DNA of 64,000 nucleotides from Escherichia phage SSBS18_WS_10_728, in the sequence record MT322327.1, one strand, 5' to 3'. Below, one piece after another: positions 4,921 through 59,466 of the stretch. A program made the translations under genes and the position numbers. Positions within the stretch are counted from its first letter, which is position 1. Each line of letters begins with the position of its first letter. The notes under the pieces were generated by a model. It saw only the letters and a list, made by a program, of their open reading frames with translations. It made no database searches and was not told the DNA's origin.

Positions 4921-4926
4921 CAAAAT

Positions 4927-5087: not shown

Positions 5088-5094
5088 TCAAAAC

Positions 5095-5172: not shown

Positions 5173-5179
5173 ATTAATT

Positions 5180-5256
5180 TGGTCTCTGTTGGAGGACTTG
5201 AACCTCCGGCCTTACCGCCCCAAACGGAACGCTCTACCAAGCTGAGCTAAACAGAG
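5180..5256 (-). tRNA. tRNA-Pro (anticodon UGG)
   Basis: Acceptor CTCTGTT/AACAGAG perfect, anticodon loop UUUGGGG, T-arm GGAGGTTCAAGTCCTCC, CCA encoded. Confidence 0.6.
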
Positions 5257-14789: not shown

Positions 14790-16360
14790 AAATTTTATCG
14801 GTTGTCCCAACCTCTGGGTCACCATCATATGTGAATAAAATATCTATCCTTCTTAACAGCCTTCTTAATCTTACTCTCTATATAGTTATATAGTACTATA
14901 TAGTATCTTAGTATCTATCTAGTGGTCTTAATAGCACCTCTGTATAGCCCTTCTAAACACTCTTCTAACAAGCCTTCTTAACAGCCTATACAATCACCTT
15001 AACCATTCCTCTACACCCTCTTAGAAGCTCCTATACACCTCTTAATCTCTAGGTTAGCTATGATACTCTCTATAGGTGTTCACTAGGAAATACTAAGCCT
15101 CTATATAGACTGTTTTAACAAACTTAACAGGAATATCTTTACAGACCTTATCTCACAAGGTCTAACACGGTACTAACAAGGTATCTTATAAGCCTGTTTA
15201 TGCCTGTATTTTTAAAAGACTGTCTAGGTAATTATTCAGAATTTTAAAATTTTTATAAAATAGGACTATCAAGTCATTTTTTAGGGTCTTTGAAGGAACT
15301 GAAAAATATCTGTAGAGTTGATTCGGTAGAGCCTACCTCATGATGTATATCTGCTTGGTAGCCCTTAACATCCTTGTAACATCCCCTTTGCAGAATTTTA
15401 AAATATCATTAACAATCTCTTAACAGTTGCTACATCTTCTTAACATCTCTTCAGAGGTCTTAACAGATTCTTAACAGAACTAACAAGAGCTTAACAGTTT
15501 TTTAACAAGTGCTGAATAGTCTTTACAGAGGTTTAACAGATGACTAACAAGTCCTAAGAAGTTAATTTTAAAGGGTTATTTTGTAAAGATAATTAACAAG
15601 TTCCTAACAAGTGTTTAACCTTTTTAACAAGCTATTAACATGGTCACTATCTCTTGGTCTATAGTTCCCTCTCCCTCTTAGTGACCCTTTAAACATACCT
15701 CTTAAAAGCTCTCCATAGCTCTTTGTAAGCTCTTTTAAGTCTCTTCCTAGTAGTTACACCCCCAACTATACAGAAAGCTATTTATAGGGCTTTACAGGAG
15801 CTTTTAAGGCTATGTCAAAGACTCTTACAAGGCTTTTACGTGGTTTTAACAGAGATTTAACAAGGGGCTAACAAGTTGCTAACAAGTACCTTAAAAGCAT
15901 AACTATGTAGGGTTTGTTAAGAAATTGTTAAGAAAATGTTAAGGGGGCTAGCATTTACGTAACTTTATAGCCTCTTTTACGTAACTTTGAAGTAACTTTA
16001 TAGCCTCTTTTACGTAACTTTATAGCCCCTATAACATACTTTTTAGTGACTATCAAGGGGGTTGTTTAGTTATTCACAAGATACTAACGAGATGATAAAG
16101 CTTACACCCTTATAAGATTCTTTTAAGGCTCTGGTAAGCTTTATAAAGGGATTTTAAGGGTGAAGTAATGCAATCCCTTAAGTTAGGTTAAAAAGGCTGT
16201 TATAGGGCTTTATAGAGCGTTTTAGTGGTTGCCCTTCCCTTTCGGGTTATGGGCTTATATTTAAGTTGATTTGATAAAAGGCTATAGAGTAGACTATAGA
16301 GTTATTGCTTTTAAGGTCTAGTAAGATTCTGGAAAGGAAAGGGAAAGGATTTAATAAGAC
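14790..16360. repeat. 1.6-kb noncoding region dense in short direct repeats
   Basis: No ORF of 60 aa or more on either strand; about 20 copies of TTAACAG/TAACAAG, TATATAG runs, ~23-bp direct repeats TACGTAACTTTATAGCCTCTTT at 15955-16030. Confidence 0.7.
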
Positions 16361-16423: not shown

Positions 16424-16672
16424 TTAGTTAGTGCCTTCTTTGTCGTAGTACAGGGAGACTATTTTTTCACCCCAATAGTGAAAAGTGTAACCATCTTTAA
16501 GAACTTCCTGTTTTGTTTCTTTCCAGAACTCATCAGAAGGATTATAGTCTTTGATGGTCTGACTGATAAGACCTTTCACCATTTCAAAGGCGTTATCAGT
16601 GCCAACAAGGTCAAATTTAACATCCAGAGAGTAGAAGCCGAATTCGTTAACAGTTGCGCGAATAGTTGCCAT
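16424..16672 (-). CDS. hypothetical small protein (array gene a)
   Basis: 82-aa ORF preceded by conserved leader cassette. Confidence 0.5.
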   Translation of the reverse strand: MATIRATVNEFGFYSLDVKFDLVGTDNAFEMVKGLISQTIKDYNPSDEFWKETKQEVLKDGYTFHYWGEKIVSLYYDKEGTN

Positions 16673-16745
16673 TTTAGAATCTCCTAGTTTAAGGACTTTG
16701 TTTAGTGGGGAAGGTCATTCCCTCCCGTTGATTAGTAATTTACTG
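16670..16745 (-). promoter_or_regulatory. conserved leader cassette, type A hairpin
   Basis: Minus sense GGGAGGGAATGACCTTCCCC-ACTAAACAAAGTCCTTAAACTAGGAGATTCTAAAATG. Confidence 0.6.
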
Positions 16746-17003
16746 CATGTTGGCGTATGTTGCAAGCCTTTTTTCGTTGTATTTTGTAAGAATCTCACAA
16801 GATAAAACATCATATTTTGTAATAGCGTTGCCTTTGTCGAGGTCAAAGAATCCAAATGTTTTACCATCTTTGAAGCCCACAACCTCGTAAGACTCTTTGA
16901 TGATTTCACCATTGAACAAATCACTTTCGATACGGTGGAATAATGCTACATCCTCTTTATCGGTTGCAATCTGTAACAGTGTGGTCAATTCTACGTGTTC
17001 CAT
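16740..17003 (-). CDS. hypothetical small protein (array gene b)
   Basis: 87-aa ORF with variant leader. Confidence 0.5.
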   Translation of the reverse strand: MEHVELTTLLQIATDKEDVALFHRIESDLFNGEIIKESYEVVGFKDGKTFGFFDLDKGNAITKYDVLSCEILTKYNEKRLATYANMQ

Positions 17004-17060
17004 TTTGAATCTCCAGTTTAGGATTTTATTTAGTGGGGGAGGTTATCCCCCGTTAAAAGA
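17001..17060 (-). promoter_or_regulatory. conserved leader cassette, type A variant
   Basis: Variant leader with GGGGGAGGTTATCCCCC hairpin. Confidence 0.5.
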
Positions 17061-17064
17061 CACT

Positions 17065-17595
17065 TTATAGATTCTTGGTTGTCTCGTCAATATCTTTTTC
17101 AATATCTTTTAAAGTTTTTTCTAAGTTCTTGATATTGAACGTTAAACCTTCACCGAGGGTCTGAGAGTAACCGTTAGGACGATGGTCGTAAAGCTCGATA
17201 TCTTCCACATCGGATAGGCTTACTCTTTCACCATTTGCAGCGTAGGCCATTGAAACAGTATTTACAGGGGCTTTATAGAACTTGTTTAAGGACTTGATAG
17301 AACGTTCGTAAGCCATTTTATAACCGTTTAAAAGGCTTTTAACGTGGTTGTGAACGTTTTTACACTCATCCAAGTAAATCCCTAAGAATAGCGGTAATAA
17401 TTCTGCTACAGCTTGCATAAAGTGAGAGACTACAACTGTTGCAACATTACGACGATGAACGTAATAAGCCCCGTTTTCTGATTTAGTGATGGTTGCAAAG
17501 TGTACCCCATTGCAGCGAAATTCATAGGTATCTTTAACAGGCTTAGACATTACAGCATTTGAGCGAATGTAGTTGATAGCTTGAAATTTGTTCAT
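17065..17595 (-). CDS. hypothetical protein (array gene c)
   Basis: 176-aa ORF with conserved leader. Confidence 0.5.
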   Translation of the reverse strand: MNKFQAINYIRSNAVMSKPVKDTYEFRCNGVHFATITKSENGAYYVHRRNVATVVVSHFMQAVAELLPLFLGIYLDECKNVHNHVKSLLNGYKMAYERSIKSLNKFYKAPVNTVSMAYAANGERVSLSDVEDIELYDHRPNGYSQTLGEGLTFNIKNLEKTLKDIEKDIDETTKNL

Positions 17596-17660
17596 TTTTG
17601 AATCTCCTAGTTTAAGGACTTTATTTAGTGAGGAAGTTCATTCCCTCACCGTTGATTAGT
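17593..17660 (-). promoter_or_regulatory. conserved leader cassette, type A
   Basis: Leader plus hairpin GTGAGGAAGTTCATTCCCTCAC. Confidence 0.6.
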
Positions 17661-17818
17661 AATTTACTTGTTTTGATATCTGATTGCAAGCAATTTTTTA
17701 AGTTTATCTATAAAGAATCTTTTAAGTTAATCCCTTTTAGATAAACCCCCTCGAACAAAGTTACCAATGTCAAGGGGTATTGTCAACACTTTTTTAAAAG
17801 TTTTTTGTAAGTTATTGA

Positions 17819-18160
17819 TTAACTGATGAATATTTTTTCAGGTTTTACATAGCTGATACGCTGACTTTTTAGGAGGTCATCCCAGATTAGCGCGGCAATA
17901 TGAGAATAACCGGATTCACGTAAGAGCTTCATTGCTTTACTTCTCGTTTCGAATCTGGTTGCATAGTACTCACTATTCAAAACAGTTTTATTCCCTTCGT
18001 TATCTGTATGGATAATCTGCATCACTTGAAAGGGGCTGGTATCCTCGCCTTTGTTCCATTGCTCAAAGTATTTTAGGCACTGCATAGGTGACAGCTTATC
18101 GCTTACTTGAGTTGACCAAGATGAATTCTCTTTATCAGTAATTACAGTTACATAAGCCAT
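17819..18160 (-). CDS. hypothetical protein (array gene d)
   Basis: ORF 17819..18205; start set to ATG 18160, which directly follows the conserved leader. Confidence 0.5.
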   Translation of the reverse strand: MAYVTVITDKENSSWSTQVSDKLSPMQCLKYFEQWNKGEDTSPFQVMQIIHTDNEGNKTVLNSEYYATRFETRSKAMKLLRESGYSHIAALIWDDLLKSQRISYVKPEKIFIS

Positions 18161-18235
18161 TTTTGAATCTCCTAGTTTAAGGACTTTATTTAGTAGGGAG
18201 GTCATCCCTCCCGTTGATTGACAATTTACAGACTT
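18160..18235 (-). promoter_or_regulatory. conserved leader cassette, type A
   Basis: Leader plus hairpin GGGAGGTCATCCCTCCC. Confidence 0.6.
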
Positions 18236-18248
18236 TTATCAGGCTTGT

Positions 18249-18482
18249 CTAGTCTTTTTCAATGATAATTTCATATTGACCATCTACGCTGTCAAAATAG
18301 ACACCATCTTCATCTTCTGTCTTAAAGTAACATTGTATATCATCACTGGCGGGGTAGTCTTGTCTTGCTATCTGACAGACCTGAACGGCATTTTCTTTAC
18401 TTCCTGTAAACTCCTCAAGCCCTTTAAAATCACATGAATGACCATTACAAATAGAAAGGATAAGATAAACGGTTGTCAGCAT
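18249..18482 (-). CDS. hypothetical small Cys-containing protein with hydrophobic N-terminus (array gene e)
   Basis: 77-aa ORF; non-conserved upstream region with AGAGGG RBS. Confidence 0.45.
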   Translation of the reverse strand: MLTTVYLILSICNGHSCDFKGLEEFTGSKENAVQVCQIARQDYPASDDIQCYFKTEDEDGVYFDSVDGQYEIIIEKD

Positions 18483-18545
18483 GATTGAAGCCCTCTAAAT
18501 GGCCCTGTGTGGGCCTTAAGTTAAAAGTTGGTGTCTTTGTACTGC

Positions 18546-19109
18546 TTATCCTAAAAAGTCCTTTAAATTGCGTTCTGTGAGGTTTTCCGTGATTTTATCC
18601 AGTAGGTCACAAAACACGGAACTATCACCGCTATTCTGTACAATTTTTGCAATACTCAACAAATCATCATCAATATAGCCCAAATTGCGGTTAGTTGTAT
18701 CAGGTACAAAGAAAGGTGCATACATCGCACTAAATTTTGTTGAGTGTATGCTAACAATCCAATTTTTATCAAAGTATCCGGTAAAGCTGGCAATTTCGCT
18801 CATGTTGTCACAAGAATAATCATCCTCTAGTTCTTCCTCTGGGATATCCATTTCAATAACAATCACGTCCTGCGTTTCCATTTGGAAAGCGGCCGTAATA
18901 AGCCCCGACTCTAAGGCACTTTGAATGCAGCGTTCACGGATGTAAGAGTCTTCCTCATCTTCCATACATTCCATTTTGATAACCTTATCCATTGGGTAAA
19001 CGTAGAAACAATCGTCCATGTAGGAGCAGTTCCAGATACCTTCCGGCTTGTCGCCACCATTCAGCAGGTTTACAAAGTTTTTCAGAGTAGTTCCGTGATA
19101 GCATTTCAT
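18546..19109 (-). CDS. hypothetical acidic protein (array gene f)
   Basis: 187-aa ORF with conserved leader. Confidence 0.5.
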   Translation of the reverse strand: MKCYHGTTLKNFVNLLNGGDKPEGIWNCSYMDDCFYVYPMDKVIKMECMEDEEDSYIRERCIQSALESGLITAAFQMETQDVIVIEMDIPEEELEDDYSCDNMSEIASFTGYFDKNWIVSIHSTKFSAMYAPFFVPDTTNRNLGYIDDDLLSIAKIVQNSGDSSVFCDLLDKITENLTERNLKDFLG

Positions 19110-19200
19110 TTTTGAATCTCCTAGTTTAAGGACTTTGTTTAGTGGTAAAGCTCTTTATCTGGGGCTTACTGTACAGACTTATAAGCCCCTTGTAAAGTAC
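19107..19200 (-). promoter_or_regulatory. conserved leader cassette, type B hairpin
   Basis: Minus sense AAAGTACTTTACAAGGGGCTTA-loop-TAAGCCCCAGATAAAGAGCTTTACCACTAAACAAAGTCCTTAAACTAGGAGATTCAAAAATG. Confidence 0.6.
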
Positions 19201-19201
19201 T

Positions 19202-19405
19202 TTATCGGTTATTTTTGACAACTTTTAAAACTGCAAGATAACCTAAGCAATAAGAGTCGCCGAAGAGAGTCCTACCCATGAAAGAATCCTCTTTAATATC
19301 CTTTGCAGTGACAGTTTTTTCTACGCCGTGGGAAAGGACTACATCGCCAACTTTGATATCTTTGATATGAGTAGTTTCAATGTTTAAACCGTTGATAATA
19401 GCCAT
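19202..19405 (-). CDS. hypothetical small protein (array gene g)
   Basis: 67-aa ORF with conserved leader. Confidence 0.45.
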   Translation of the reverse strand: MAIINGLNIETTHIKDIKVGDVVLSHGVEKTVTAKDIKEDSFMGRTLFGDSYCLGYLAVLKVVKNNR

Positions 19406-19470
19406 TTTTGAATCTCCTAGTTTAAGGACTTTGTTTAGTGGGAAGGTAATTCCCTCCCCGTTGATGTGTA
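19403..19470 (-). promoter_or_regulatory. conserved leader cassette, type A
   Basis: Leader plus hairpin GGGAAGGTAATTCCCTCCCC. Confidence 0.6.
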
Positions 19471-19505
19471 ATTTAATCTATCTGAAAACCAGTGTCAACA
19501 GTTTT

Positions 19506-19910
19506 TTAGAGTTCTGCATAAATTGCGTCGCAGATATTACGAAAATCGTGATTTGTTAAGTTACGTTGCAACCATGTTGCGAAAAAGTCAGCGATTGCAA
19601 AATTAGCGTCATACTCAACAGATAGCCACACTTTAACAGCAAATCGAAACATTTTCAAGTCTAATTCTTTATTCATAACCTTTGATTTGCCTAACATGTC
19701 AGCCATCTCATATTGTGCACCGTCTAGCGTGATACCTGCTGCAACGTCAGCCAATGAGTTTTTTACGCTTTCAACGTCTAAGATAACACTTTGAATCTTA
19801 CCAATAATGTTGTGTAATGTTTCGTCCGGTGCTGATGACGTGATAACATTAATCCGGTTGACGGTCAAACGCGCTTTTAAGATTGATAACTCACGATTAT
19901 TAATAGCCAT
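19506..19910 (-). CDS. hypothetical protein (array gene h)
   Basis: 134-aa ORF with variant leader. Confidence 0.5.
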   Translation of the reverse strand: MAINNRELSILKARLTVNRINVITSSAPDETLHNIIGKIQSVILDVESVKNSLADVAAGITLDGAQYEMADMLGKSKVMNKELDLKMFRFAVKVWLSVEYDANFAIADFFATWLQRNLTNHDFRNICDAIYAEL

Positions 19911-19995
19911 TTTAGAATCTCCAATTTAGGATTTAGTTAGTAAAGCTCTTTATCTGGGGCTTACTTTATCGAACTATAAGCCCCTTGTAAAGTAC
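19908..19995 (-). promoter_or_regulatory. conserved leader cassette, type B variant
   Basis: Type B hairpin GGGGCTTA...TAAGCCCC with variant RBS region GGAGATTCTAAAATG. Confidence 0.55.
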
Positions 19996-19996
19996 T

Positions 19997-20269
19997 TTAT
20001 GCTAAATGCAGCTTTTTACCTTTTACCATGATGTAAGTTGATGCGCTATTACTATAAACATCCTGATAAATTCTGCGCAAACGGCCTTCGTAGTATACTT
20101 TCCAACTGGTTGGAATCTTTTTCCCGTATCCTGTAGCAGTTTTTTGGAGTCCTGCAACTTGCCAATCTAAGATATGTTGTTCGGCTTGTAAATCCTCGAA
20201 GTGCATTACACCGTTCACATAGTGACGAAGGGTTACATTTAAAGTGCGACCGTTGTTAGTAGTATACAT
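19997..20269 (-). CDS. hypothetical protein (array gene i)
   Basis: 90-aa ORF with conserved leader. Confidence 0.5.
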   Translation of the reverse strand: MYTTNNGRTLNVTLRHYVNGVMHFEDLQAEQHILDWQVAGLQKTATGYGKKIPTSWKVYYEGRLRRIYQDVYSNSASTYIMVKGKKLHLA

Positions 20270-20340
20270 TTTTGAATCTCCTAGTTTAAGGACTTTACTT
20301 AGTGGGGAGGTTATTACCTCCCGTTGATTAGTAATTTACT
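20267..20340 (-). promoter_or_regulatory. conserved leader cassette, type A
   Basis: Leader plus hairpin GGGGAGGTTATTACCTCCC. Confidence 0.6.
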
Positions 20341-20357
20341 TGTTTTAAAAACCAAAA

Positions 20358-20690
20358 TCAAGAGGAATTTTTTCGTTTGTTCAATTCTTGGACAATTACA
20401 GCGTAATAGTCTTTTAAGTCACTAATATTTAAAGCATTTATCAGAGAGTTATAATCATCCACTAACTGAAAATCATCTTTGAAAATGTCACTTATCTGAT
20501 AGGTTTTCGCTTTATATCTGAAGCTCATCTCTAGCCGCTTTATTTGCTCATCACTGAGGCGCCCTAGAAAGCTTTCTACAAGGTTATTGCTAACCTGCTG
20601 TGTGATTGCCTTATTTGCTAGATTATAGGCTTTATATGCCTTATATAGCGCGAAAATGGCAATGATTGCAGTGATACCAGTCATTAACAT
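20358..20690 (-). CDS. hypothetical membrane-anchored protein (array gene j)
   Basis: 110-aa ORF with N-terminal TM helix; start overlaps stop of upstream gene (translational coupling). Confidence 0.45.
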   Translation of the reverse strand: MLMTGITAIIAIFALYKAYKAYNLANKAITQQVSNNLVESFLGRLSDEQIKRLEMSFRYKAKTYQISDIFKDDFQLVDDYNSLINALNISDLKDYYAVIVQELNKRKNSS

Positions 20691-20980
20691 GGTGTTTCCT
20701 CTTTACGTGATACTTTGCCATTTACAGTTATCTCATAAGAATCTAGTAAGTCACTTTTAGATTTTACTGGACTTTTAAAAGTATCATCATAGACATTTAC
20801 TTGCAATACAGGTTTTTTATATTCCCTGCAACTATTCCATAAGCAAATCACTACACGACGGCCTTTTATTTTGCCGTGTAACCATTCCATAACATCATGA
20901 CTATTCCTTGATGTCTCTATAAAATCAATTTTGTTGAGTAATTTGCTGAGGTTTTCCCTAACTTTATTTGATAATTTCAT
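20684..20980 (-). CDS. hypothetical protein (array gene k)
   Basis: 98-aa ORF with variant leader. Confidence 0.5.
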   Translation of the reverse strand: MKLSNKVRENLSKLLNKIDFIETSRNSHDVMEWLHGKIKGRRVVICLWNSCREYKKPVLQVNVYDDTFKSPVKSKSDLLDSYEITVNGKVSRKEETPC

Positions 20981-21070
20981 CTTTGAATCTCCTAGTTTAA
21001 GGGTTAATTTGATAAATCTCTTTATCTGGGGCTATCATATCCGCTTGTTAGCCCCGTGTAAAGAAATCTA
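20978..21070 (-). promoter_or_regulatory. conserved leader cassette, type B variant
   Basis: CTTTATCTGGGGCTA...TAGCCCCGTG hairpin with leader. Confidence 0.5.
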
Positions 21071-21071
21071 T

Positions 21072-21584
21072 TTAGTTCTTAAAGATATTCATCACTGAAT
21101 CTTTTAATGCTTCCAAGCGTTCTAATACTTCAGATTCTGCGTCTGCGTTGTTCACTTCCTCTTTTAGTCTGTCATCTAAATCATCGCCGTCACTGTAGCA
21201 CCAATCGAAAGCATAACCAATATAAAAACTCTCTAAAACCGTGCTACCGTTTGCATCTACAACTTTCGCGGCAATGTTATACTCTGAAGCCTCTAAATCC
21301 CTTTCTAGTTCTTTCTGTAAGCTCGTGTAAGCCTCTTTCGATGGATTCTCACGGCCTTGTTTTGCATAGTCACTTGAAAGCTGCTTAAGGCTGTAATGTA
21401 AAGGGATTGCATATTTAAATTCATTACGCTGACAGTTAAGATTTTTAATAGTTACACCGCCTTGATGGTCATCTGTAAATTTCCAATTATCAAGGTTATG
21501 ACTTGCTTCGTAGCAATTAACAGCCTCATAAATGATGGAAAATTTTTCTTTTACAACTTCAAAGGTAGCGTCTACAGTTTTCAT
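21072..21584 (-). CDS. hypothetical acidic protein (array gene l)
   Basis: 170-aa ORF with conserved leader. Confidence 0.5.
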   Translation of the reverse strand: MKTVDATFEVVKEKFSIIYEAVNCYEASHNLDNWKFTDDHQGGVTIKNLNCQRNEFKYAIPLHYSLKQLSSDYAKQGRENPSKEAYTSLQKELERDLEASEYNIAAKVVDANGSTVLESFYIGYAFDWCYSDGDDLDDRLKEEVNNADAESEVLERLEALKDSVMNIFKN

Positions 21585-21678
21585 TTTTGAATCTCCTAGT
21601 TTAAGGACTTGATTTAGTGGTAAAGCTCTTTATCTGGGGCTTAAGATATCAACTTTTAAGCCCCTTGTAAAGTACTTT
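21582..21678 (-). promoter_or_regulatory. conserved leader cassette, type B
   Basis: Same architecture as 19107..19200. Confidence 0.6.
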
Positions 21679-21679
21679 A

Positions 21680-21937
21680 TCAGATTAAATTGCCAGTTAA
21701 TGATAAGTGCATTTTGTAACCTTGTTTAGTAAACACGTTCACTTTACCGATGGATTTTACACCTTTAAAGAGGTTATTTGAACTGCGTTTTAAGGTTAAC
21801 TTTTTATCAGCCTTCACGCCCCATCTTACAGCAGTTTGTTTTCCGTTGTCAACCACTTTCCCGCCTAACTTTTTCGCCATGATGCGAGCGTCATCACGAG
21901 TTTTTGCAGGAACTACAACGTTTTTGATAATAGCCAT
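21680..21937 (-). CDS. hypothetical basic protein (array gene m)
   Basis: 85-aa ORF with leader. Confidence 0.5.
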   Translation of the reverse strand: MAIIKNVVVPAKTRDDARIMAKKLGGKVVDNGKQTAVRWGVKADKKLTLKRSSNNLFKGVKSIGKVNVFTKQGYKMHLSLTGNLI

Positions 21938-22024
21938 TTTAGAATCTCCAATTTAGGATTTAGTGGTAAAGCTCTTTATCTGGGGCTTACTTTATCTAAC
22001 TATAAGCCCCTTGTAAAGTACTTT
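21935..22024 (-). promoter_or_regulatory. conserved leader cassette, type B variant
   Basis: Near-identical to the copy at 19908..19995. Confidence 0.55.
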
Positions 22025-22025
22025 A

Positions 22026-22406
22026 TCAGTTAATTTTGAAAATTGTCACATAGCCGTCACTGCCGATTATTTGAGACACTCCAGCTTTTTCCACTGAATA
22101 GCCCATATTTTCAAGATGATAAACAGCATCATCATAACCATATGCGCCACCCTGATAACGTCTCTTATCGCATCTTATCAGGTTTTTACCACGTCCTGCA
22201 AGTGCATTCAGTACGGCTTTTTCACTTGATAGCGTACCATCTAACATGGTTGCCGTGTAATGGTTGATTTTATTCCCGTTAATATCATACTTAAAATTGA
22301 ATGCGTGAACAACAATCAATTTGCCGTTAAATTTTTCATCAAGTGACTTCTCCAGTGCGTTGCGGAAGTTGTCTTTGTTGATGAATTTCGGTGCACGATA
22401 AGCCAT
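22026..22406 (-). CDS. hypothetical protein (array gene n)
   Basis: 126-aa ORF with leader. Confidence 0.5.
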   Translation of the reverse strand: MAYRAPKFINKDNFRNALEKSLDEKFNGKLIVVHAFNFKYDINGNKINHYTATMLDGTLSSEKAVLNALAGRGKNLIRCDKRRYQGGAYGYDDAVYHLENMGYSVEKAGVSQIIGSDGYVTIFKIN

Positions 22407-22493
22407 TTTTGAATCTCCTAGTTTAAGGTTAATGTAGTAAAGCTCTTTATCTGGGGCTTAAGATATCAGCTTTTAAGCCCCCTGTAAAGTACT
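22404..22493 (-). promoter_or_regulatory. conserved leader cassette, type B
   Basis: Type B hairpin plus CTAGGAGATTCAAAAATG. Confidence 0.55.
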
Positions 22494-22494
22494 T

Positions 22495-22701
22495 TTATTT
22501 ATCGTAGTAGTAAATTGCTGTCTGTCTTGTAAACTTCTTAGTGTTTCTTGTAAGGTAGCAATTAGAATTAATAGCCGTTTCTACATAGTTGCAATAGTCG
22601 GCTTCTGATATTCTGGACCATACGCCACAGATTTTCATGTAAAAACGTTTTGCCTTTGTGTTAACGTTAGTTGTAACCATTAATTCACGATAGTAAGTCA
22701 T
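22495..22701 (-). CDS. hypothetical small Cys-containing protein (array gene o)
   Basis: 68-aa ORF with partial leader. Confidence 0.45.
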   Translation of the reverse strand: MTYYRELMVTTNVNTKAKRFYMKICGVWSRISEADYCNYVETAINSNCYLTRNTKKFTRQTAIYYYDK

Positions 22702-22740
22702 TTTTGGATTCTCCAGTTTAGGAAGTGGGCTGGCTTGCCC
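22699..22740 (-). promoter_or_regulatory. conserved leader cassette, divergent copy
   Basis: CATTTTTGGATTCTCCAGTTTAGGAAG then hairpin GGGCTGGCTTGCCC. Confidence 0.4.
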
Positions 22741-52890: not shown

Positions 52891-53147
52891 GTAAGCCTCT
52901 TTTAAGTAACTATTAAGTTTTAATCTTTTATCTTAACGTATTCTATACGTTATACTTTAAAGCTTTTTAAAAGCTATTAAATAATCTTTTAAGAGTTTTA
53001 AAGTATCTGTATAGTTAAACTGTTAAGTAACCTTTTAAGTAAAAACCCACTTCGCAAAGATTAACACCTTGTCAAGTACATTGTCAACTTGCTTTTTATA
53101 ATTTTTTGCAGTAATGTATGAGGTTAATGATTTTAGAGGGAGTAAAA

Positions 53148-55290
53148 ATGGAAAACGTAGATTTTAAAAACTTACATTTAGTTGGTGATACAGAAACTGA
53201 TGGTTTACTCCTTGAGTTCACTAAGGTGCACGTAATGGCTTTCGCAGACTATAAATCTGACGATGAAGAGCCACCTGTATGGGTCTTTACAGACGAGCCT
53301 ATCCTCGGTCACAAGTATACCAAGCACATTAAGGGTGGTTTACGTGAAGGTGTTGAGTTTGCGTTAAAGGCAAAACGACTTTGCATCCATAATGGTCTGG
53401 GATATGACTGGTGGGTTTTCAATCACATCGCACCTGATTTGTGGAACTTTGATAATCCAAAGTGTAAACCGTGGAGTAATTTCTTTCAGGACTCTCTTAT
53501 CCAGTCTCGTGTTCAGTGGATGGATAGACCAACTCCAAAAGGCTATAAAGGTGCTCATGGCTTGGCTGCATGGGGTGCTCGTGTTGGTGTACGTAAACCA
53601 GAGATTGAACATTGGGGTGTGTGGAATGCAGAAATCTTCACTCGTGTTGTGGAAGATATCCGTATTAACGCCAAAACTAAACGTGCACTGGATAATGAAT
53701 ACCTGAAGTTAAAGAAGTGTGGTATAGACACTTATGAAACCTATATGCGAGCTAAAGAAACATCTTTCTGGATGAGTCAACAAGCTATCAATGGTTGGAA
53801 AGCTGATAAAGAGCTTATGGAGTTCCATGTAAAGGAGCTTGACAAGTTGACTAATGAGCTTGCTTCGGAAGTTGAACCACACCTTCCTCCAACTATTAAG
53901 ACCAAAGGTAAAGTCACTGGAGAAGAGTTTGCAAAAGCTTGGAATGAGTATGTGGAAGCGTTCGGTCATGCAGATGGACTGAAGAGAATTACCAAGTACC
54001 CTAAGACGAAGTACCGTCAGCAGGTACGTAACGGTGAGATGCAGACATACGAAATCAAACCATTTGGTAAGCCAACTACAAAGATTTTTAACATTGAAAA
54101 GAGAAATTGTTATACACCAACCAACTCTGTAACTGGTGAAGAGTACAAGGAAGGTTTTGTAGCAATGAAGGATGCTCGTGCAATTTGCAATGAGTTGAAT
54201 GCAAAGATTGGTAAGAAATGCAAAGACTGGAAGCCAGTAAAAACAGTTAAAACTGTGAAGTACTATAACAGTCATGTTGTTAACCACTTTGAGCTTGAGT
54301 CAAGTCGCTACACAGGTTTGATTGATGCACCATATACCCCAATTGAGTTCGAAGTTTCTCGTATGACTCAGGTAGCAGTTGTTAAAGACTACTTGAAATC
54401 AGTTGGTTGGATTCCAGATGACTGGAACTACAAGAAAGACTCAGATGGTCGTCCTGTCAAAGTTTGTCGTTTCAAAGACAACAAAAAGATGATTACAAAG
54501 CATCCTAAGTGGCAGGAGATGGTTGAACGGTGTGGCTTGAGTTATGTTGAACATGAAGGTGTCCAGTACATTGAACATAACTGGTCTGTGAAGAAGTACA
54601 CAGATTTGCTTGAGCCTTGCTTAATCCGTACTTCACCAAAACTTACTGAATCTTCTTACGATACGATTGAAGGTGAGCTTGGACAGAAGATTGCTAAGTA
54701 CTACACTTTGATGCACCGACGCAGAACTATTGAGAACTCAAAGGATGATGAAAAAGGCTGGTTGAACCAGATTCGTCCTGATGGTCGCCTTAGTGCTGGT
54801 GCAATGGTATTTGGTACTTCAACTGGACGTATGACACAATATGGTATTGTAAACGTACCGTCTGGTGCTGCTGTCTATGGGGAACCGATGAGGGCAGTGT
54901 GGATTTGTGAAGAAGGTACTAACGTTGTCTCTGTAGACATGAACTCAGCCCAGCTAGTTCTCCTTTGTAACTTTATGGGTGACAAAGAGTTCACTAAAGC
55001 AGTAACTGAAGGTAAAGAGTCAGTAGAATTTACCAAGCAAGAAGATGGGAGATATTATTGCAAACATCTTGATAAGTACCTTAATCCAGAAACTGATAAG
55101 TATCTTCGTTATGATGCTGAGAATGACCTCTATGAAGTCTACACAGGTACTGATGCACATACACTGAACAGTATCTATTTTGCATTGAACAAAGAGGATG
55201 ACATTATTCGTTGTAGAGAAACTCAGGATGAAGAACTTCTTCACGAGATAACTAAAGGCCGTAAGAAGGCTAAGAATGGTATCTATGCGT
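53148..55290 (+). CDS. DNA polymerase family A, exon 1 (3'-5' exonuclease and N-terminal polymerase domains)
   Basis: Exo I motif VGDTETDGL; motif A VDMNSAQLVLL; AGAGGGA RBS before ATG 53148; reading frame is interrupted where polymerase motif B begins. Confidence 0.75.
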
Positions 55291-55557
55291 CAGTGGCGCA
55301 TGTAAAACGTTGTGAATTGCTGGAAGCCTAAGTCTGAGAAGATACGGTAATCAGCAGCGAAGCCTCTTGAGAGGAACGTTCAGAGACTATCGAAAAGCAT
55401 ACTTAATGTATGAACTGAGTAGAGTAGGGTGGTAAGCTAATGACCATTCCCAAGTGCAACGGTAGCATCCTGCTACGTGATATAGTCCGACACTCCGTAG
55501 AAATGCGGAGAAGTTCATAAGAGAACTGGTACACCTTGCGAGTGTATTGACCAGATG
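55291..55557 (+). ncRNA. group I self-splicing intron in the DNA polymerase gene
   Basis: Exon 1 ends in U paired to G of internal guide GCGCA (P1 = exon UGCGU with intron GCGCA); intron ends in G; splicing restores in-frame motif B ...IYALLFGAGDEKF... Confidence 0.7.
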
Positions 55558-56114
55558 TATTGTTCGGTGCAGGTGATGAGAAGTTTGCCAAAACTATCAA
55601 GGCATCATCTACGGAAGAAGGTGCATTGACTAAACAAACTTACTATATGCGTCTGCCAAAGATTAAGAAGTTACTTGATAGCTTAGAAGCCGATTTTAAG
55701 GCGTCTAAAAAGGCTCTGGAAGAGGTTTTCGGGAAGAACTCTTCAATTGCTAAAGGTGGTTATATCAGGGTTGCTGGAGCATGGATATGGTGCAAATCTC
55801 CACATAAACTGCTGAACTACCTTCTGATGAGTTCGGAAGCACAGATTCAGAATGAGGCCATCAACCTAGCAGCAAGAAAAGCTTGTGAAGATGGTCTGAC
55901 AAAACTGAATGCTCGAAAACCAGCTATCGGAGCAAGGTTACTTCTGGCATATCACGATGAAAATAGTTGGGAATGTCCAGAGGGTATGACACATGATATG
56001 AAAGCAATTGCTGACTGGATGTATGGACAAGCTTCAAAAAACTTAGGTTTGAGGAAAGAAACACTTGTAACTGGCACAGCAAAGGTTGGTAAGAGTTGGT
56101 ATGAGGTACATTGA
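55558..56114 (+). CDS. DNA polymerase family A, exon 2 (motifs B and C)
   Basis: LFGAGDEKFAK matches T7-type motif B YGAGDEK; motif C YHDE; no ATG start, in frame after splicing. Confidence 0.75.
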
Positions 56115-56117
56115 TTG

Positions 56118-56651
56118 ATGGATTTTATTTCACAAGAACGTTTAAAGGAGCTGCTGCACTATGACCCCGAAACAGGGGTCTTTACTTGGCTTCGTAGAGA
56201 AGGTAAATCAAGAGCTGTTAGTGTTTTTAACAGTAACTATGCAGGAAAGGTAGCAGGTAATATCCAGACTGATTCAAGTGGTCATAAACAGATTAGTATC
56301 TATTTTGACAAGAAAGCACATAAAGCACACAGACTCGCATGGCTTTACGTGTATGGCAAGATGCCAAAAGGTATCATTGACCATATCAACGGAGACTCAC
56401 TTGACAACAGGATTGTAAACTTAAGGGAAGCAGATGATTTTCAAAGTGCTTGGAATAAAGGTAAACCAGTCACCAATAAATCTGGGTACAAGGGTGTAAG
56501 CCTTAAGAAGAAGTCTGGTAAGTGGGTCGCACAGATAAGTTATAAAGGTAAGAAGATGTTTTTAGGTTACCATGATACACCTGAAGAAGCCCATAAAGCT
56601 TACTGTGAAGCTGCTGTGAAACTCCACGGAGAGTTTGCAAAACTATCTTGA
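56118..56651 (+). CDS. HNH endonuclease with AP2 DNA-binding domain
   Basis: HNH motif DHINGDSLDNRIVNLR and AP2-like GYKGVSLKKKSGKWVAQISYKGKKMFLGYH; directly after the polymerase. Confidence 0.65.
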   Translation: MDFISQERLKELLHYDPETGVFTWLRREGKSRAVSVFNSNYAGKVAGNIQTDSSGHKQISIYFDKKAHKAHRLAWLYVYGKMPKGIIDHINGDSLDNRIVNLREADDFQSAWNKGKPVTNKSGYKGVSLKKKSGKWVAQISYKGKKMFLGYHDTPEEAHKAYCEAAVKLHGEFAKLS

Positions 56652-56702: not shown

Positions 56703-56921
56703 ATGAAACTTTCAGACGTTATTCAGCAACTTCACGACAACTGCTATACTCCAGAGTTGATTCAAGATATGCTTATTGTAGTTATGCCTAGCAAGTTCGT
56801 AAAAGGTTTTAATAGTGAATCTTTAAAGTCTGCGCATATCCTTATCGTTGACGGTAAGATTGCAAGAGACCGTACAGGTGTTCTTAAGGGTGAACGTATC
56901 AATATTGACTTATCATTTTAA
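56703..56921 (+). CDS. hypothetical protein
   Basis: 72-aa ORF with GGAGG RBS. Confidence 0.45.
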   Translation: MKLSDVIQQLHDNCYTPELIQDMLIVVMPSKFVKGFNSESLKSAHILIVDGKIARDRTGVLKGERINIDLSF

Positions 56922-56930
56922 GGAAAAGGT

Positions 56931-57137
56931 ATGGAAGTCCTAGTAAACTATATCTATTGTTATGATGTTGTTCACTCCACTACAACCGTAGCTCAACGTA
57001 ACCCAATCGTCCCACGAGAAGGTGAGTTTGTTCGAATCGATGGTTGGACTTACACTGTGGAAAGCATCATTCATAAGTTTGATGTTGCTGGTGATGTACA
57101 GGTTATTGACGTAGAGATTGGTGGTAAGAGAAAATGA
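56931..57137 (+). CDS. hypothetical protein
   Basis: 68-aa ORF. Confidence 0.4.
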   Translation: MEVLVNYIYCYDVVHSTTTVAQRNPIVPREGEFVRIDGWTYTVESIIHKFDVAGDVQVIDVEIGGKRK

Positions 57138-57352
57138 CTGTAGAAGATAAATTAAAGAACGCAGTTCTTACAGAAGATGGTGCGCTTGAAACATTCATTC
57201 TTCGTGTTGATGGTAAGTTATTCCGGTGTCGTTGTGGGTCAAACTGTTTCCATAAACCAGATAAAAACGACTTAGAGCTTTACGCATGTAATGCTTGCGA
57301 CACTTGGTATCACTCAGAGGTTAAAAATGACAATTCTATACAAACAAAATAA
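57134..57352 (+). CDS. zinc-ribbon protein
   Basis: CRCGSNC...CNAC motifs. Confidence 0.45.
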   Translation: MTVEDKLKNAVLTEDGALETFILRVDGKLFRCRCGSNCFHKPDKNDLELYACNACDTWYHSEVKNDNSIQTK

Positions 57353-58427
57353 AGATGGCTCTTTTAACGTCTGGTCATGCGTTGCTGTAGGTGACAAAGT
57401 TATTACAACCTACGGTAAAGAAAATGGCAAGATGATGTTTGAAGAGTATACAGCAGAACCGAAAAACATCGGTAAAAAGAATGAGCGTAACGCTGAACAG
57501 CAAGCTCTCTTTGAAGTTGCTGCTAAGTATAAAAAGCAGGTTGACCGTAAAGGCTACGCTTACACAAAAGAGTCTGCACAGAATACTGAGAAGGTAGGTG
57601 TGCAGCTTGCTCATGATGCTGCAAAGGTTAGTCATGCAAAGTATCTGAAGTTCCCTGCTGACGCTCAACCAAAACTTGATGGTGTCCGTTGTAGGATTTC
57701 AAGAGATGCTGATTCAGTCAGCTTCACGGCTTATTCTCGTGAGAATACTGTTTACAACGTCCCAGAAGAACTAATCCCAGATTTGCTTTTGTTGCTTAAA
57801 TTTCATCCACAAGTAGAAGACTTTGATGGTGAGATTTATGCTCATGGTTGGGACTTAGAAGATATTGTGTCTATGATTAAGAATGCTGACAATCCAGACC
57901 GACATCTACTCCAGTTCTACTGGTACGATATCTGTGACAGTACTAAGACGTGGCCTGAGCGTAGAGATATTATTGAGACTTCACCATTGAATGACTTTAG
58001 AGATGGCTGTAAAGTTGTCCCTGTTAAGTCTCGTCGTGTAAATTCTTGGGAAGAGTTCGATGAAGCTCATGATAAGTGGGTTGAAGTTAAGTTTGAAGGT
58101 GCAATGTACCGTTCAATCTCTGAAGACTCCTTTTATGAGTGCTGTCACCGTTCATACTTCTTGATTAAGCACAAGAAGATGCACACTGAAGAGTTTAAAG
58201 TAACTGGTGTAAAGACCGATAAACGTGGTCATGGCAAGTTCGTTGTAGAGACTCTTCCTAACGTCTTTGTAGATGTCTCATGGAAGACTACTCATGAGAA
58301 GAAACAGTATCTTGCTGAGCATCCTGAAGAGTTTATCGGGAAACCTTTAACGGTTCAGTTCCAGAAGATGACTCGTAAGGGGTCTTTACAGTTTCCTGTT
58401 GGTCTCGTTATTAGGGATTATGAGTAA
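57327..58427 (+). CDS. ATP-dependent DNA ligase
   Basis: Motif I KLDGVR with downstream EGAMYR and IKHKK; start at ATG 57327 (GAGG RBS). Confidence 0.65.
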   Translation: MTILYKQNKDGSFNVWSCVAVGDKVITTYGKENGKMMFEEYTAEPKNIGKKNERNAEQQALFEVAAKYKKQVDRKGYAYTKESAQNTEKVGVQLAHDAAKVSHAKYLKFPADAQPKLDGVRCRISRDADSVSFTAYSRENTVYNVPEELIPDLLLLLKFHPQVEDFDGEIYAHGWDLEDIVSMIKNADNPDRHLLQFYWYDICDSTKTWPERRDIIETSPLNDFRDGCKVVPVKSRRVNSWEEFDEAHDKWVEVKFEGAMYRSISEDSFYECCHRSYFLIKHKKMHTEEFKVTGVKTDKRGHGKFVVETLPNVFVDVSWKTTHEKKQYLAEHPEEFIGKPLTVQFQKMTRKGSLQFPVGLVIRDYE

Positions 58428-58499
58428 AAAGTTGTTGACATAGAAAATTTGGTGAGTATACTGAGCAGCATAAACCAACGGGTACTCACCAGCATCACT

Positions 58500-58760
58500 T
58501 AAGAGTCTTTTAAGAGGGTTTTTAAGTGATGTCCGGTCGGGTGAGGTAGGGTTAAGTATTGTCCGGTACGGTCGGGTAAAGTACGGTATGGTAAGGCAAG
58601 GCTAGGTCTGGTATGGGTAGTTAATCGGAGCTACATTAAAATGAGACTTACCTTTTTAAAAGGTCTTTGAAGAGGGTCTTTTAACAAAGTATTGTATGGT
58701 ATAGTTTGGTTAGGTATGGTAGGGTATGGTAAGGTAATGTATGGAAGGATGGCAGTAGCC
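58500..58760. repeat. G/T-rich tandem short-repeat array
   Basis: About 15 spaced copies of GGTAtGG / GGTAAGG / GGTAGGG; noncoding. Confidence 0.6.
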
Positions 58761-58868
58761 TTATAAAAAATCTGCCAAATAAGCTATAAAATCTGTTGAC
58801 AAGTCAGGTGTTATAGCTTATTTTTATACTCAATGTAATACAAAATTTAATATAACTTTGAGGTCATT

Positions 58869-59252
58869 ATGAAAAAGATTTTATTAGCTGCTGCAATGGT
58901 TATGGCAATAAATTTACCAGTCAATGCAACAGAACTCCCAAATGTGGACTTATCAGGTGTTCCAGAAGATACTTGCCAGATTGTTAAAGGTGTTGCGCTA
59001 TCTAAAGGTGAGCTACTTAAACCAATCTCTGAAGAGTCTTTGACAGAGATGACTGATAAGGTAACTGACTACCAGTATCGTGTTCTTGGAGAGTATTTCC
59101 TGCAATCTGCAAATATTAAAGAAAAGCACCATGATGATATTGATGTACAGGCTATGCTCAACCATCGCATCCAGTTTAAAGAAGATTTGATGCAAAAAGC
59201 TATGTATGGTGTTGAGTATTTCTTAGAAAACAGAAGCTGCACAGGTATTTGA
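58869..59252 (+). CDS. secreted protein (signal peptide)
   Basis: N-terminus MKKILLAAAMVMAINLPVNA. Confidence 0.5.
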   Translation: MKKILLAAAMVMAINLPVNATELPNVDLSGVPEDTCQIVKGVALSKGELLKPISEESLTEMTDKVTDYQYRVLGEYFLQSANIKEKHHDDIDVQAMLNHRIQFKEDLMQKAMYGVEYFLENRSCTGI

Positions 59253-59253
59253 T

Positions 59254-59466
59254 ATGGCTCTTAAAAAGTTACACCCCAGAAGCGGTTATGGTAAGATAAT
59301 TGACGATACAGACGGCTTTACAGTCTTTACAGTTATCTGTCAAGATGATTCACAGATTGAAAAGGCTCTTGACGATTATCTTAATGATGAACGTGAAAAG
59401 GTTAGGGCTACAAACATAGATTCACTGATTGACACTTCACGCAAACGGAAGAAGAAAGATGAATGA
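59254..59466 (+). CDS. hypothetical protein
   Basis: 70-aa ORF. Confidence 0.4.
   Translation: MALKKLHPRSGYGKIIDDTDGFTVFTVICQDDSQIEKALDDYLNDEREKVRATNIDSLIDTSRKRKKKDE

What the first reader, a model, noticed from the sequence alone, without database searches (positions are those of the whole stretch)
58500..58760. G/T-rich tandem array (GGTAtGG-type) upstream of a plus-strand promoter
About 15 spaced copies of GG-TA-(A/T/G)-GG lie in the ~430-bp noncoding gap after the ligase gene, just upstream of a TTGACA-containing promoter-like sequence near 58796. This could be a binding-site array or a G-tract structure-forming region.
Basis: seen in the sequence. Interest (0 to 1): 0.4.

Follow-up and report, generated by a model that had tools for sequence, protein, structure and literature searches.

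The report
Orphan VIPR guide-RNA genes in phage
The G/T-rich array is a pair of genes for "vrRNAs", the recently described repeat-coded guide RNAs that phages use to silence rival genetic elements, but this phage carries the guides without the protein that reads them.

Summary
The 441-bp gap after the ligase gene (58428-58868) holds two strictly 5-nt-periodic arrays, 17 units at 58530-58614 and 11 at 58688-58742. Their logo is D-G-Y-N-N, and nothing else in the 64 kb resembles them.

Each array sits between a leader hairpin and a hairpin-plus-pseudoknot tail. A near-consensus sigma-70 promoter (58435-58462) lies upstream.

Promoter, leaders and tails are the same as those of the four vrRNAs of phage SUSP1. 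SUSP1 is the model for VIPR systems (bioRxiv 10.64898/2026.04.26.720920). There, a small RAMP protein (Vipr) reads the variable NN of GGY/NN repeats against DNA, skipping one base between dinucleotides.

I reproduced that rule. Of 54 guides from relatives, 34 match an E. coli phage satellite at 80% or better with a 1-nt skip, against 0-2 with other skips.

Window guide A matches a satellite gene at 29/34 bases, in codon phase (0/1000 shuffles). Guide B matches at 19/22 (9/1000), which is weak.

The twist is that the vipr-vap cassette, present in 15 of 23 informative related loci, is absent from the window. It is also absent from the complete collinear genome KEP1. Tail A has a broken pseudoknot.

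So these are orphan vrRNA genes: a known kind in an undescribed effector-less state.

The parts
58435..58462 (+). Sigma-70-type promoter P1 (TTGACA-16-TATACT) that would transcribe both vrRNA modules.
   Evidence: 11/12 match to consensus. The 28-nt sequence is identical upstream of SUSP1 vrRNA1 and in KEP1. An 8-bp inverted repeat GGTGAGTA/TACTCACC (58451-58458 / 58483-58490) overlaps the -10.
58493..58531 (+). Leader A: long hairpin (CAUCACUUAAGAGUCUUUU-AAG-AGGGUUUUUAAGUGAUG). Its 3' arm runs into the first repeat units. It may be a 5' processing signal (inferred).
   Evidence: RNAfold -18.6 kcal/mol for 58490-58535, about 19 bp. The same leader precedes SUSP1 vrRNA1 and vrRNA4.
58530..58614 (+). 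vrRNA-A variable region: 17 DGYNN units. Guide dinucleotides: CC CG GA AG TA AT CC AC CG AA AC AT AA AA TA CT AT.
   Evidence: Register and logo. The 1-nt-skip match is 29/34 to L148 11001-11050 (E. coli C7 satellite gene WP_000999791.1), in codon phase, with 0/1000 unit shuffles reaching it (max 24).
58615..58648 (+). vrRNA-A 3' tail: hairpin GUAG/CUAC intact, pseudoknot stem 2 broken (loop AAUCGG against downstream UGAGAC). It is a chimera of two tail types.
   Evidence: Unique among 71 modules. All three unpaired cells in the covariation count belong to this sequence (pairs 10-33, 13-30, 14-29). KEP1 has the intact version, and the best GenBank match is 96.5%.
58650..58687 (+). Leader B (ACCUUUUUAAAAGGUCUUUGAAGAGGGUCUUUUAACAA). 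By eye, AAAAGGUCUU can pair with AGGGUCUUUU.
   Evidence: The same leader precedes SUSP1 vrRNA2 and vrRNA3 and many relatives' modules. The hairpin is read from the sequence and was not folded separately.
58688..58742 (+). vrRNA-B variable region: 11 DGYNN units. Guide dinucleotides: AT AT AT TT TA AT AG AT AA AA AT.
   Evidence: Register. The best 1-nt-skip match is 19/22 to L151 7076-7107, in a replication-initiator-like HTH_36 gene of a satellite. 9/1000 shuffles reach it, it is not in wobble phase, and no better variant exists in 5,426 E. coli genomes.
58743..58777 (+). vrRNA-B 3' tail: hairpin AAGG/CCUU plus pseudoknot UGGCAG/CUGCCA, intact.
   Evidence: Identical to the tail of SUSP1 vrRNA4 and 20 other modules. 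100% of cells are paired, with compensatory changes against the GUGG/CCAC + UGGUAG/CUACCA type.
58778..58825 (+). Terminator-like inverted repeat (AAUAAGCUAUAA...UUAUAGCUUAUU followed by UUUUU).
   Evidence: RNAfold -17.8 kcal/mol. P2 scores 10/12. It is not called by the terminator scan, whose rule needs at least 3 G-C pairs in the stem. It is conserved in SUSP1.

Best explanation
The region encodes two vrRNAs, the guide RNAs of a type II VIPR (Viral Interference Programmable Repeat) system. They are orthologous to the experimentally characterised vrRNAs of Escherichia phage SUSP1. Promoter P1 would make a precursor of about 360 nt (inferred). It would be processed into two RNAs, each a tract of DGY-NN pentamers capped by a hairpin/pseudoknot tail (inferred from SUSP1 small-RNA sequencing). 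In a complete system the Vipr protein forms a complex with the vrRNA. The NN dinucleotides then pair with double-stranded DNA, skipping one base between dinucleotides, and this blocks transcription of the target. Guide A is programmed against a gene of a roughly 13-kb phage satellite carried by about 9% of complete E. coli genomes. Guide B possibly targets the replication-initiator-like gene of another variant of that satellite. This phage, however, has no vipr or vap gene. The guides are orphans and can act only if Vipr is supplied in trans. Most likely they are a recent remnant of loss of the vipr-vap cassette. That cassette sits between directly repeated vrRNA modules and so should be prone to deletion and re-acquisition by recombination.
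For: Homology: promoter, both leader types and both tail types are the same as in the SUSP1 locus. That locus is syntenic: ligase - vrRNA1 - vipr - vap1 - three vrRNAs - homologue of the 127-aa ORF. The cassette proteins of relatives are 97% and 99% identical to the SUSP1 proteins.
Defining pattern: across 48 distinct arrays (571 units), position 1 is G 75% and never C, position 2 is G 99%, position 3 is Y 100%, and positions 4-5 are free. Array lengths change only by multiples of 5. This matches the published GGY/NN description.
Tail pseudoknot: 97.7% and 100% of cells paired, with compensatory changes.
Targeting rule reproduced on independent guides: 34/54 reach 80% or better with skip 1, against 0, 0 and 2 with skips 0, 2 and 3, and 0 with unit order reversed.
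Window guides: A 29/34 in codon phase, 0/1000 shuffles. B 19/22, 9/1000.
Absence of the effector: tblastn finds nothing significant in the window (best E 0.66-0.77). A six-sequence Vipr HMM gives a best E of 0.48 in the window and 0.17 in the complete collinear KEP1 genome, against 3e-95 for the positive control. KEP1 has the same two-module locus and no other arrays.
Cassette turnover: 15 of the 24 fetched related loci carry the cassette, 8 lack it and one (L020) is truncated upstream of the locus. The loci hold 1-5 modules.
Against: No expression data exist for this phage. Processing sites are inferred from SUSP1.
The window covers about 64 of roughly 87 kb. Absence of vipr in the remainder is inferred from KEP1 and from synteny with SUSP1, where that part holds structural genes.
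GGY conservation in cassette-less arrays (G1 0.75, G2 0.98, Y3 1.00) is as high as in cassette-bearing ones (0.77, 0.97, 0.99). So there is no sign of decay. That fits recent loss, but it fits continued function equally well.
The guide B target is statistically weak and out of wobble phase.
The VIPR mechanism itself rests on one preprint.
Confidence: 0.85

Rival explanations
1. The orphan vrRNAs are maintained because they work in trans. In mixed infections they would load onto Vipr made by a co-infecting vipr+ Felixounavirus or Suspvirus, adding anti-satellite specificities. Alternatively they would compete for that Vipr as decoys.
For: There is a precedent for vrRNA genes without a detected vipr. 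43 E. coli chromosomes carry a vrRNA-like array plus tail, and the one examined lies inside the satellite. No vipr was detectable by DNA search in 5,426 genomes. That satellite guide hits other satellites at 21/24, as the paper reports. GGY is undecayed in 15 orphan arrays, none of which is identical to a cassette-linked array in the sample. About half of the orphan guides still have matches of 80% or better. P1 is near-consensus.
Against: A lytic phage cannot count on co-infection. Tail A has lost 3 of 7 pseudoknot pairs, as expected under relaxed selection. Overall divergence among these phages is only about 5%, so lack of decay is uninformative. P1 and the terminator/P2 element may be kept for the downstream genes.
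Confidence: 0.25
2. A divergent Vipr, or the standard cassette, is encoded in the roughly 23 kb of the genome outside the window, so the system is complete.
For: Only 64 kb was available. The paper reports that Vipr proteins are very diverse in sequence.
Against: The complete genome of KEP1 is collinear with the window at 85-97% identity and has the same locus. It has no hit to a six-member Vipr HMM (best E 0.17) or by tblastn. In SUSP1 the corresponding segment holds only terminase-to-tail-fibre genes. In every relative with the cassette it lies between the vrRNA modules.
Confidence: 0.05
3. The arrays act at the DNA or RNA-structure level independently of VIPR. Candidates are G-quadruplexes, an R-loop-prone origin downstream of a strong promoter, or a DNA-binding-protein array regulating the promoter at 58796.
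For: The arrays are G-rich and C-poor on the non-template strand, directly downstream of a strong promoter and next to replication genes. Runs of GG spaced 3 nt apart could in principle form two-tier quadruplexes.
Against: The first G is dispensable in 25% of units, while the pyrimidine after GG is invariant. G4Hunter is 0.67. The cumulative GC-skew minimum is near 52 kb, where gene orientation flips, not here. The NN positions carry specific, skip-1-phased matches to satellite genes. The same kind of array lies next to a Vipr-family ORF in 30 of the 120 viral loci found by the repeat pattern alone, most of them outside Felixounavirus.
Confidence: 0.03

Closest known systems
vrRNAs of the type II VIPR system of Escherichia phage SUSP1 (bioRxiv 10.64898/2026.04.26.720920)
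   Same: Same genomic position (between the ligase gene and the homologue of the 127-aa ORF). Identical promoter, same two leader types, same tail types, same GGY/NN pentamer scaffold. Same class of target (the E. coli satellite) under the same 1-nt-skip rule.
   Different: No vipr and no vap1. Two modules instead of four. Array A has 17 units, just above the published 9-16 range. Tail A is a chimera with a broken pseudoknot stem.
vrRNA genes carried by the targeted E. coli satellites
   Same: vrRNA-like array plus pseudoknot tail with no vipr detected in the same genome, implying dependence on Vipr made by another element.
   Different: A satellite is by definition active with a helper that can supply Vipr. 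A lytic phage without vipr has no guaranteed supplier. The satellite tail is a further sequence variant.
Orphan CRISPR arrays (arrays without adjacent cas genes)
   Same: Guide-encoding repeats that persist without the effector genes. They are either relics or served in trans.
   Different: No repeat-spacer structure. Specificity is spread over dinucleotides inside 5-nt repeats. No acquisition machinery is known.
TRAP-binding sites in Bacillus trp leaders ((G/U)AG triplets with 2-3-nt spacers)
   Same: An RNA tract of conserved triplets separated by two free bases, read by a repeating protein assembly. This was my working analogy before finding the VIPR paper (from my own knowledge).
   Different: The motif is GGY, not NAG. 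The spacers carry information here. Unit number varies from 9 to 21. No TRAP homologue is involved.

Membership tests
VIPR vrRNA (type II, SUSP1 clade) | Tract of about 9-16 tandem pentamers with conserved GGY alternating with variable NN | tested here: met
   17 and 11 units. Logo over 571 units: G1 75%, G2 99%, Y3 100%, N4 and N5 free. Length changes only in steps of 5.
VIPR vrRNA (type II, SUSP1 clade) | NN hypervariable between close relatives while the flanks are invariant | tested here: met
   48 distinct arrays among 24 loci whose leaders and tails are nearly identical.
VIPR vrRNA (type II, SUSP1 clade) | Invariable 3' tail of about 40 nt with hairpin and pseudoknot | tested here: inconclusive
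   Tail B meets it fully. Tail A keeps the hairpin but has 3 of 7 pseudoknot pairs broken, the only such case in 71 modules.
VIPR vrRNA (type II, SUSP1 clade) | Sequence homology to experimentally detected vrRNA genes | tested here: met
   Promoter, leaders and tails match SUSP1 vrRNA1-4.
VIPR vrRNA (type II, SUSP1 clade) | Natural target matching at least 80% of NN under the 1-nt-skip rule | tested here: met
   Guide A 29/34 (85%), in frame, 0/1000 shuffles. Guide B 19/22 (86%) but 9/1000 and out of phase.
VIPR system (complete locus) | Adjacent vipr gene (minimal RAMP, about 20 kDa) | tested here: not met
   No hit in the window by tblastn or Vipr HMM (best E 0.48). Present in 15 of 24 related loci.
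VIPR system (complete locus) | Accessory vap gene | tested here: not met
   No significant vap1 hit in the window (best E 0.66).
VIPR vrRNA (type II, SUSP1 clade) | Expressed as a roughly 100-nt RNA that co-purifies with Vipr | not testable with these tools
   Shown for SUSP1 only.
G-quadruplex-forming element | Four or more G-runs, conserved as runs, with a G4 propensity score above the usual thresholds | tested here: not met
   G1 is absent in 25% of units. G4Hunter mean is 0.67, best 25-nt window 1.0-1.08. The commonly used cut-off of about 1.2 is quoted from memory.
CRISPR array | Identical direct repeats of 25-40 nt separated by unique spacers | tested here: not met
   Repeat analysis shows only 5/10-nt periodicity and two dissimilar module flanks.
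Any Rfam family | Match at or near the gathering score | tested here: not met
   Nothing relevant at E up to 10 in 58000-59300. No gathering-level hits in seven array-bearing loci.

The most novel reading that the evidence does not exclude
Orphan vrRNA genes are a maintained strategy, not debris. On this reading, Felixounaviruses that have shed vipr-vap keep strongly transcribed guides. These guides either exploit Vipr produced by co-infecting relatives (cheating on a public good) or soak it up as decoys. The vrRNA modules flanking the cassette would act as the recombination substrate that flips the effector in and out of phage populations.
Probability: 0.2. Interest if true: 0.75.

Novelty: new member of a known kind. 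Interest (0 to 1): 0.5.

Why it matters
VIPR was described only in mid-2026 and, in the Felix O1 group (Ounavirinae), only for the SUSP1 clade. This window shows that the same guide-RNA genes are present in ordinary Felix O1-like phages. About a third of the IMG/VR relatives examined, and by a rough count about half of the GenBank Felix O1-like genomes, carry them without the effector. My scan of five satellite islands reproduces the published one-base-skip code on guides the authors did not use. That scan is an independent computational check of a surprising claim.

The effector-less state raises a concrete, testable question: are guides without a reader relics, or do they work in trans? It also points to recombination between vrRNA modules as the way the cassette is lost and regained.

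Practically, these arrays are unannotated, or marked only as 'repeat_region', in GenBank records. In at least one phage (Gordonia phage Trine) an annotated CDS overlaps such an array.

Tried and rejected
Before finding the VIPR paper I considered the following, and dropped each for the reason given.
- Coding potential: the short ORFs through the arrays differ in length and frame between relatives.
- CsrA sponge: position 3 is never A, so GGA is avoided.
- TRAP-like site: wrong triplet and variable unit number.
- Anti-Shine-Dalgarno mimic or ribosome standby site: GGAGG is excluded by Y3.
- Rho rut site on the minus strand, and rrn-like boxA antitermination (GGTCTTTTAACAA resembles boxA): both were superseded by the direct homology to SUSP1 and were not tested further.
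- R-loop origin: the GC-skew minimum is at about 52 kb.
- T7-like primase-site cluster: position 4 is not conserved.
- BREX site GGTAAG (motif recalled from memory): only 12% of units are GGTAA.

Searches that found nothing useful:
- Rfam.
- The Felix O1 genome paper does not mention the arrays.
- The PhageMaP paper on the Felixounavirus Bas63 gave no data on this gap.
- Exact (NNx)n patterns of guides A and B have no match in IMG/VR.
- An 'ideal target' BLAST for guide B found no variant better than 19/22.

One inference withdrawn. I first read the chimeric tail A as the scar of the deletion that removed vipr-vap. KEP1 has the same cassette-less two-module locus with an intact tail. The chimera is therefore a separate conversion event, not necessarily the deletion junction.

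Full report
**1. What is in the sequence**

The window is from a Felix O1-like phage (Felixounavirus). Its closest GenBank relatives are about 95% identical.

The flagged region lies in a 441-bp gap (58428-58868). The gap separates an ATP-dependent DNA ligase gene (57291-58427) from a 127-aa ORF (58869-59252) whose N-terminus looks like a signal peptide (read by eye).

The G/T-rich repeat is real, but it is two arrays with a strict 5-nt period:
- Array A: 58530-58614, 17 units.
- Array B: 58688-58742, 11 units.

In a phased count of GG over 12 consecutive pentamers the arrays score 10 and 8. The rest of the 64 kb never exceeds 5.

Each array belongs to a larger module: a leader hairpin, the array, then a roughly 35-nt tail. 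A near-consensus sigma-70 promoter lies upstream of both modules (58435-58462, TTGACA-16-TATACT, 11/12). Downstream is an A/T-rich terminator-like hairpin (58778-58825).

**2. Comparative anatomy**

I fetched 23 IMG/VR relatives through the downstream ORF, plus phage Andreotti. These loci hold one to five such modules, in one or two gaps.

Leaders and tails are almost invariant, while the arrays differ wildly. Across 48 distinct arrays (571 units):

| Position | Composition |
|---|---|
| 1 | G 75%, T 16%, A 8%, never C |
| 2 | G 99% |
| 3 | pyrimidine 100% (T 88%) |
| 4 and 5 | unconstrained |

Array lengths (49-99 nt) differ only by multiples of 5, apart from two arrays (70 and 74 nt) that depart from the 5-nt register.

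A pattern scan of IMG/VR for six consecutive GGTNN units found the same kind of heterogeneous array in many unrelated viral contigs. Some fill more than 1 kb of non-coding DNA.

**3. Identification**

A full-text search for 'pentanucleotide repeats' in phages returned a June 2026 preprint on VIPR systems (read). The paper reports the following:
- A minimal RAMP protein (Vipr, about 20 kDa), usually with an accessory gene (vap).
- vrRNAs of about 100 nt, built from 9-16 YNNGG repeats: conserved GGY alternating with hypervariable NN.
- An invariable 3' tail, which in the SUSP1 clade contains a pseudoknot.
- The NN dinucleotides pair with double-stranded DNA, skipping one base between dinucleotides, usually the codon wobble base. 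Binding represses transcription.
- SUSP1-clade guides mostly target a phage satellite in E. coli.

SUSP1 belongs to the same subfamily (Ounavirinae) as this window. I fetched its locus. The gene order is ligase - promoter + vrRNA1 - 195-aa gene - 146-aa gene - three vrRNAs - homologue of the 127-aa ORF.

The promoter, both leader types and the tail types match the window's. The two-gene cassette that splits the modules in 15 of the fetched relatives is 97% and 99% identical to the SUSP1 pair. I take the 195-aa protein to be Vipr, because the paper describes vipr as adjacent to vrRNA1 and about 20 kDa.

**4. Tests of the vrRNA reading**

*(a) Tail structure.* Four tail types share a hairpin plus an H-type pseudoknot, with compensatory changes:

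| Hairpin stem | Pseudoknot stem |
|---|---|
| GUAG/CUAC | GUCUCA/UGAGAC |
| GUAG/CUAC | AAUCGG/UCGAUU |
| GUGG/CCAC | UGGUAG/CUACCA |
| AAGG/CCUU | UGGCAG/CUGCCA |

In the pair counts, 97.7% and 100% of cells are paired. No shuffle reached the observed covariation score, and slid registers collapse to 23-50%.

*(b) Targeting rule.* I located the satellite with the SUSP1 baseplate gene. It is an island of roughly 13 kb with its own tape-measure and baseplate genes, present in 474 of 5,426 complete E. coli genomes. I scanned five islands with 54 distinct guides:

| Rule tested | Guides with best NN match of 80% or more |
|---|---|
| 0-nt skip | 0 |
| 1-nt skip | 34 |
| 2-nt skip | 0 |
| 3-nt skip | 2 |
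| 1-nt skip, unit order reversed | 0 |

*(c) Window guide A.* It matches L148 11001-11050 (E. coli C7, gene WP_000999791.1) at 29 of 34 bases. The first 14 units match at 26/28. The match is gapless and in frame, with the skipped base at the wobble position. None of 1,000 unit shuffles exceeded 24. Several relatives' guides hit the same gene.

*(d) Window guide B.* It is A/T-rich. Its best match is 19/22, in a replication-initiator-like HTH_36 gene of another satellite variant (L151 7076-7107). The match is out of wobble phase, 9/1000 shuffles reach it, and no better variant exists in the E. coli collection. I treat this target as tentative.

*(e) Self-targeting.* Neither guide has a target in the window or in KEP1.

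*(f) Arrays and Vipr go together elsewhere.* A profile built from six Vipr homologues finds a Vipr-family ORF next to the arrays in 30 of the 120 loci recovered by the repeat pattern alone, most of them unrelated to Felixounavirus.

**5. The peculiarity of this window**

The vipr-vap cassette is missing. Ligase, two vrRNA modules and the next gene follow directly.
- tblastn with both cassette proteins finds nothing in the 64 kb (best E 0.66-0.77).
- The Vipr profile gives a best E of 0.48 in the window, against 3e-95 for the control.
- The window lacks about 23 kb of the genome. KEP1 is a complete 88,443-bp genome, collinear with the window, with the same two-module locus. It has no vipr or vap anywhere and no further arrays.
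- In SUSP1 the missing segment is purely structural genes.

Among the IMG/VR relatives, 8 lack the cassette yet keep one or two modules. In GenBank about 230 records match the gap and about 118 carry vipr at 90% identity or better. This is a rough count, because the two sets were not intersected.

Tail A of the window is unique. Its pseudoknot 5' strand is of one tail type (AAUCGG) and its 3' strand of another (UGAGAC), so 3 of 7 pairs are broken. KEP1 has the intact version.

**6. Mechanism, with shown and inferred steps separated**

Shown here:
- Homology to SUSP1 vrRNA genes.
- The GGY/NN constraint.
- Tail covariation.
- The skip-1 match of guide A to a satellite gene.
- Absence of any detectable vipr or vap.

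Shown by others for SUSP1: expression, Vipr binding, the skip rule, and transcriptional repression.

Inferred for this phage:
- Transcription from P1.
- Processing at the leader hairpins.
- That the RNAs can act only with Vipr supplied in trans.

My preferred reading is a recent remnant. The cassette lies between direct repeats (the modules), so recombination can delete or restore it. Module number varies from 1 to 5, and tail A looks like the product of relaxed selection.

GGY conservation is as high in orphan arrays as in cassette-linked ones. Overall divergence is only about 5%, though, so this cannot separate recent loss from maintained function.

A trans-acting or decoy role remains open. 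The satellites themselves carry vrRNA genes, and no vipr was detected in any of the 5,426 E. coli genomes.

**7. Verdict**

The feature is real. It is now explained by a very recently described system.
- 'Binding-site array' is right only at the RNA level.
- Novelty: these are new members of a known kind, vrRNA genes in a Felixounavirus. The state is not mentioned in the preprint: the terms 'orphan', 'standalone' and 'without vipr' have no occurrences.
- Interest is moderate. The identification is not surprising once the paper is known. The orphan state and the independent reproduction of the skip-1 code are useful and testable.

Noticed in passing
window 16660-22730 (minus-strand gene starts): Seven to ten copies of an 80-100-nt intergenic module. 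Each contains a ribosome-binding site plus start codon (CAT...TCTCCT on the + strand), a conserved box (TAGTTTAAGGACTTT) and a G+C hairpin, or a second box with GGGGCTTA...TAAGCCCC. They look like repeated promoter/terminator cassettes of an early-gene region, and match some of the direct repeats listed in the Felix O1 genome paper.
   Followed up: no
window 15954-16043: Four to five tandem copies of an 11/22-nt unit (TTTACGTAACTTTATAGCCTC) in a non-coding stretch at the edge of the early region. It looks iteron-like and could be a replication or regulatory site.
   Followed up: no
window 53118-56651: The family A DNA polymerase gene is split into two ORFs (53118-55331 and 55560-56114). An HNH-AP2 homing-endonuclease-like ORF (56115-56651) follows them.
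   Followed up: partly
window 56703-57352: Three small ORFs in tandem (72, 68 and 72 aa) just upstream of the ligase gene, the last overlapping its start. Relatives show Cys-X-X-Cys motifs that suggest zinc ribbons. No Pfam hit.
   Followed up: partly
window 58451-58490: An 8-bp inverted repeat, GGTGAGTA ... TACTCACC, spans the -10 of promoter P1 and the start of the transcript. It is conserved in SUSP1 and KEP1. It may be an operator for P1 or a 5' structure of the precursor.
   Followed up: no
L060 2213-3407; L046 3327-5324; L048 (reverse complement) 3392-3849: Unrelated IMG/VR contigs carry very large vrRNA-like arrays: 13 modules over 1.2 kb in L060, with a conserved linker GGAATGGTTTAATGAATTTAATTT. 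A Vipr-family ORF lies on the same locus as the arrays in each (directly upstream in L060 and L046). The linkers and module ends differ from the SUSP1 type.
   Followed up: partly
L155 2113-2202 (Gordonia phage Trine, NC_047991): A phased GGYNN array lies inside the annotated CDS gp40, directly after a Vipr homologue (gp41). The start of that CDS is probably mis-annotated non-coding vrRNA sequence.
   Followed up: no
L158, about 8950-9080 (E. coli MS 196-1 satellite): The satellite carries its own vrRNA (12 units plus a GTGG/CCAC tail with a further loop variant) but no vipr. Its guide matches other satellite variants (21/24 in L151) and not the phage. 43 of 5,426 E. coli genomes carry such a sequence.
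   Followed up: partly
L147-L151, L158: The satellite islands sit at three or more chromosomal sites: inside the DUF72 gene near yecD/yecN, between yciI and tonB, and between ymdF and wrbA. Each has a serine-recombinase-family gene. Several are disrupted by IS3-family elements.
   Followed up: no
window 200-5200: A dense cluster of repeats with the tRNA T-arm signature (GGTTCGAATCC on the minus strand) indicates the phage tRNA gene cluster. The tRNA finder was not run.
   Followed up: no
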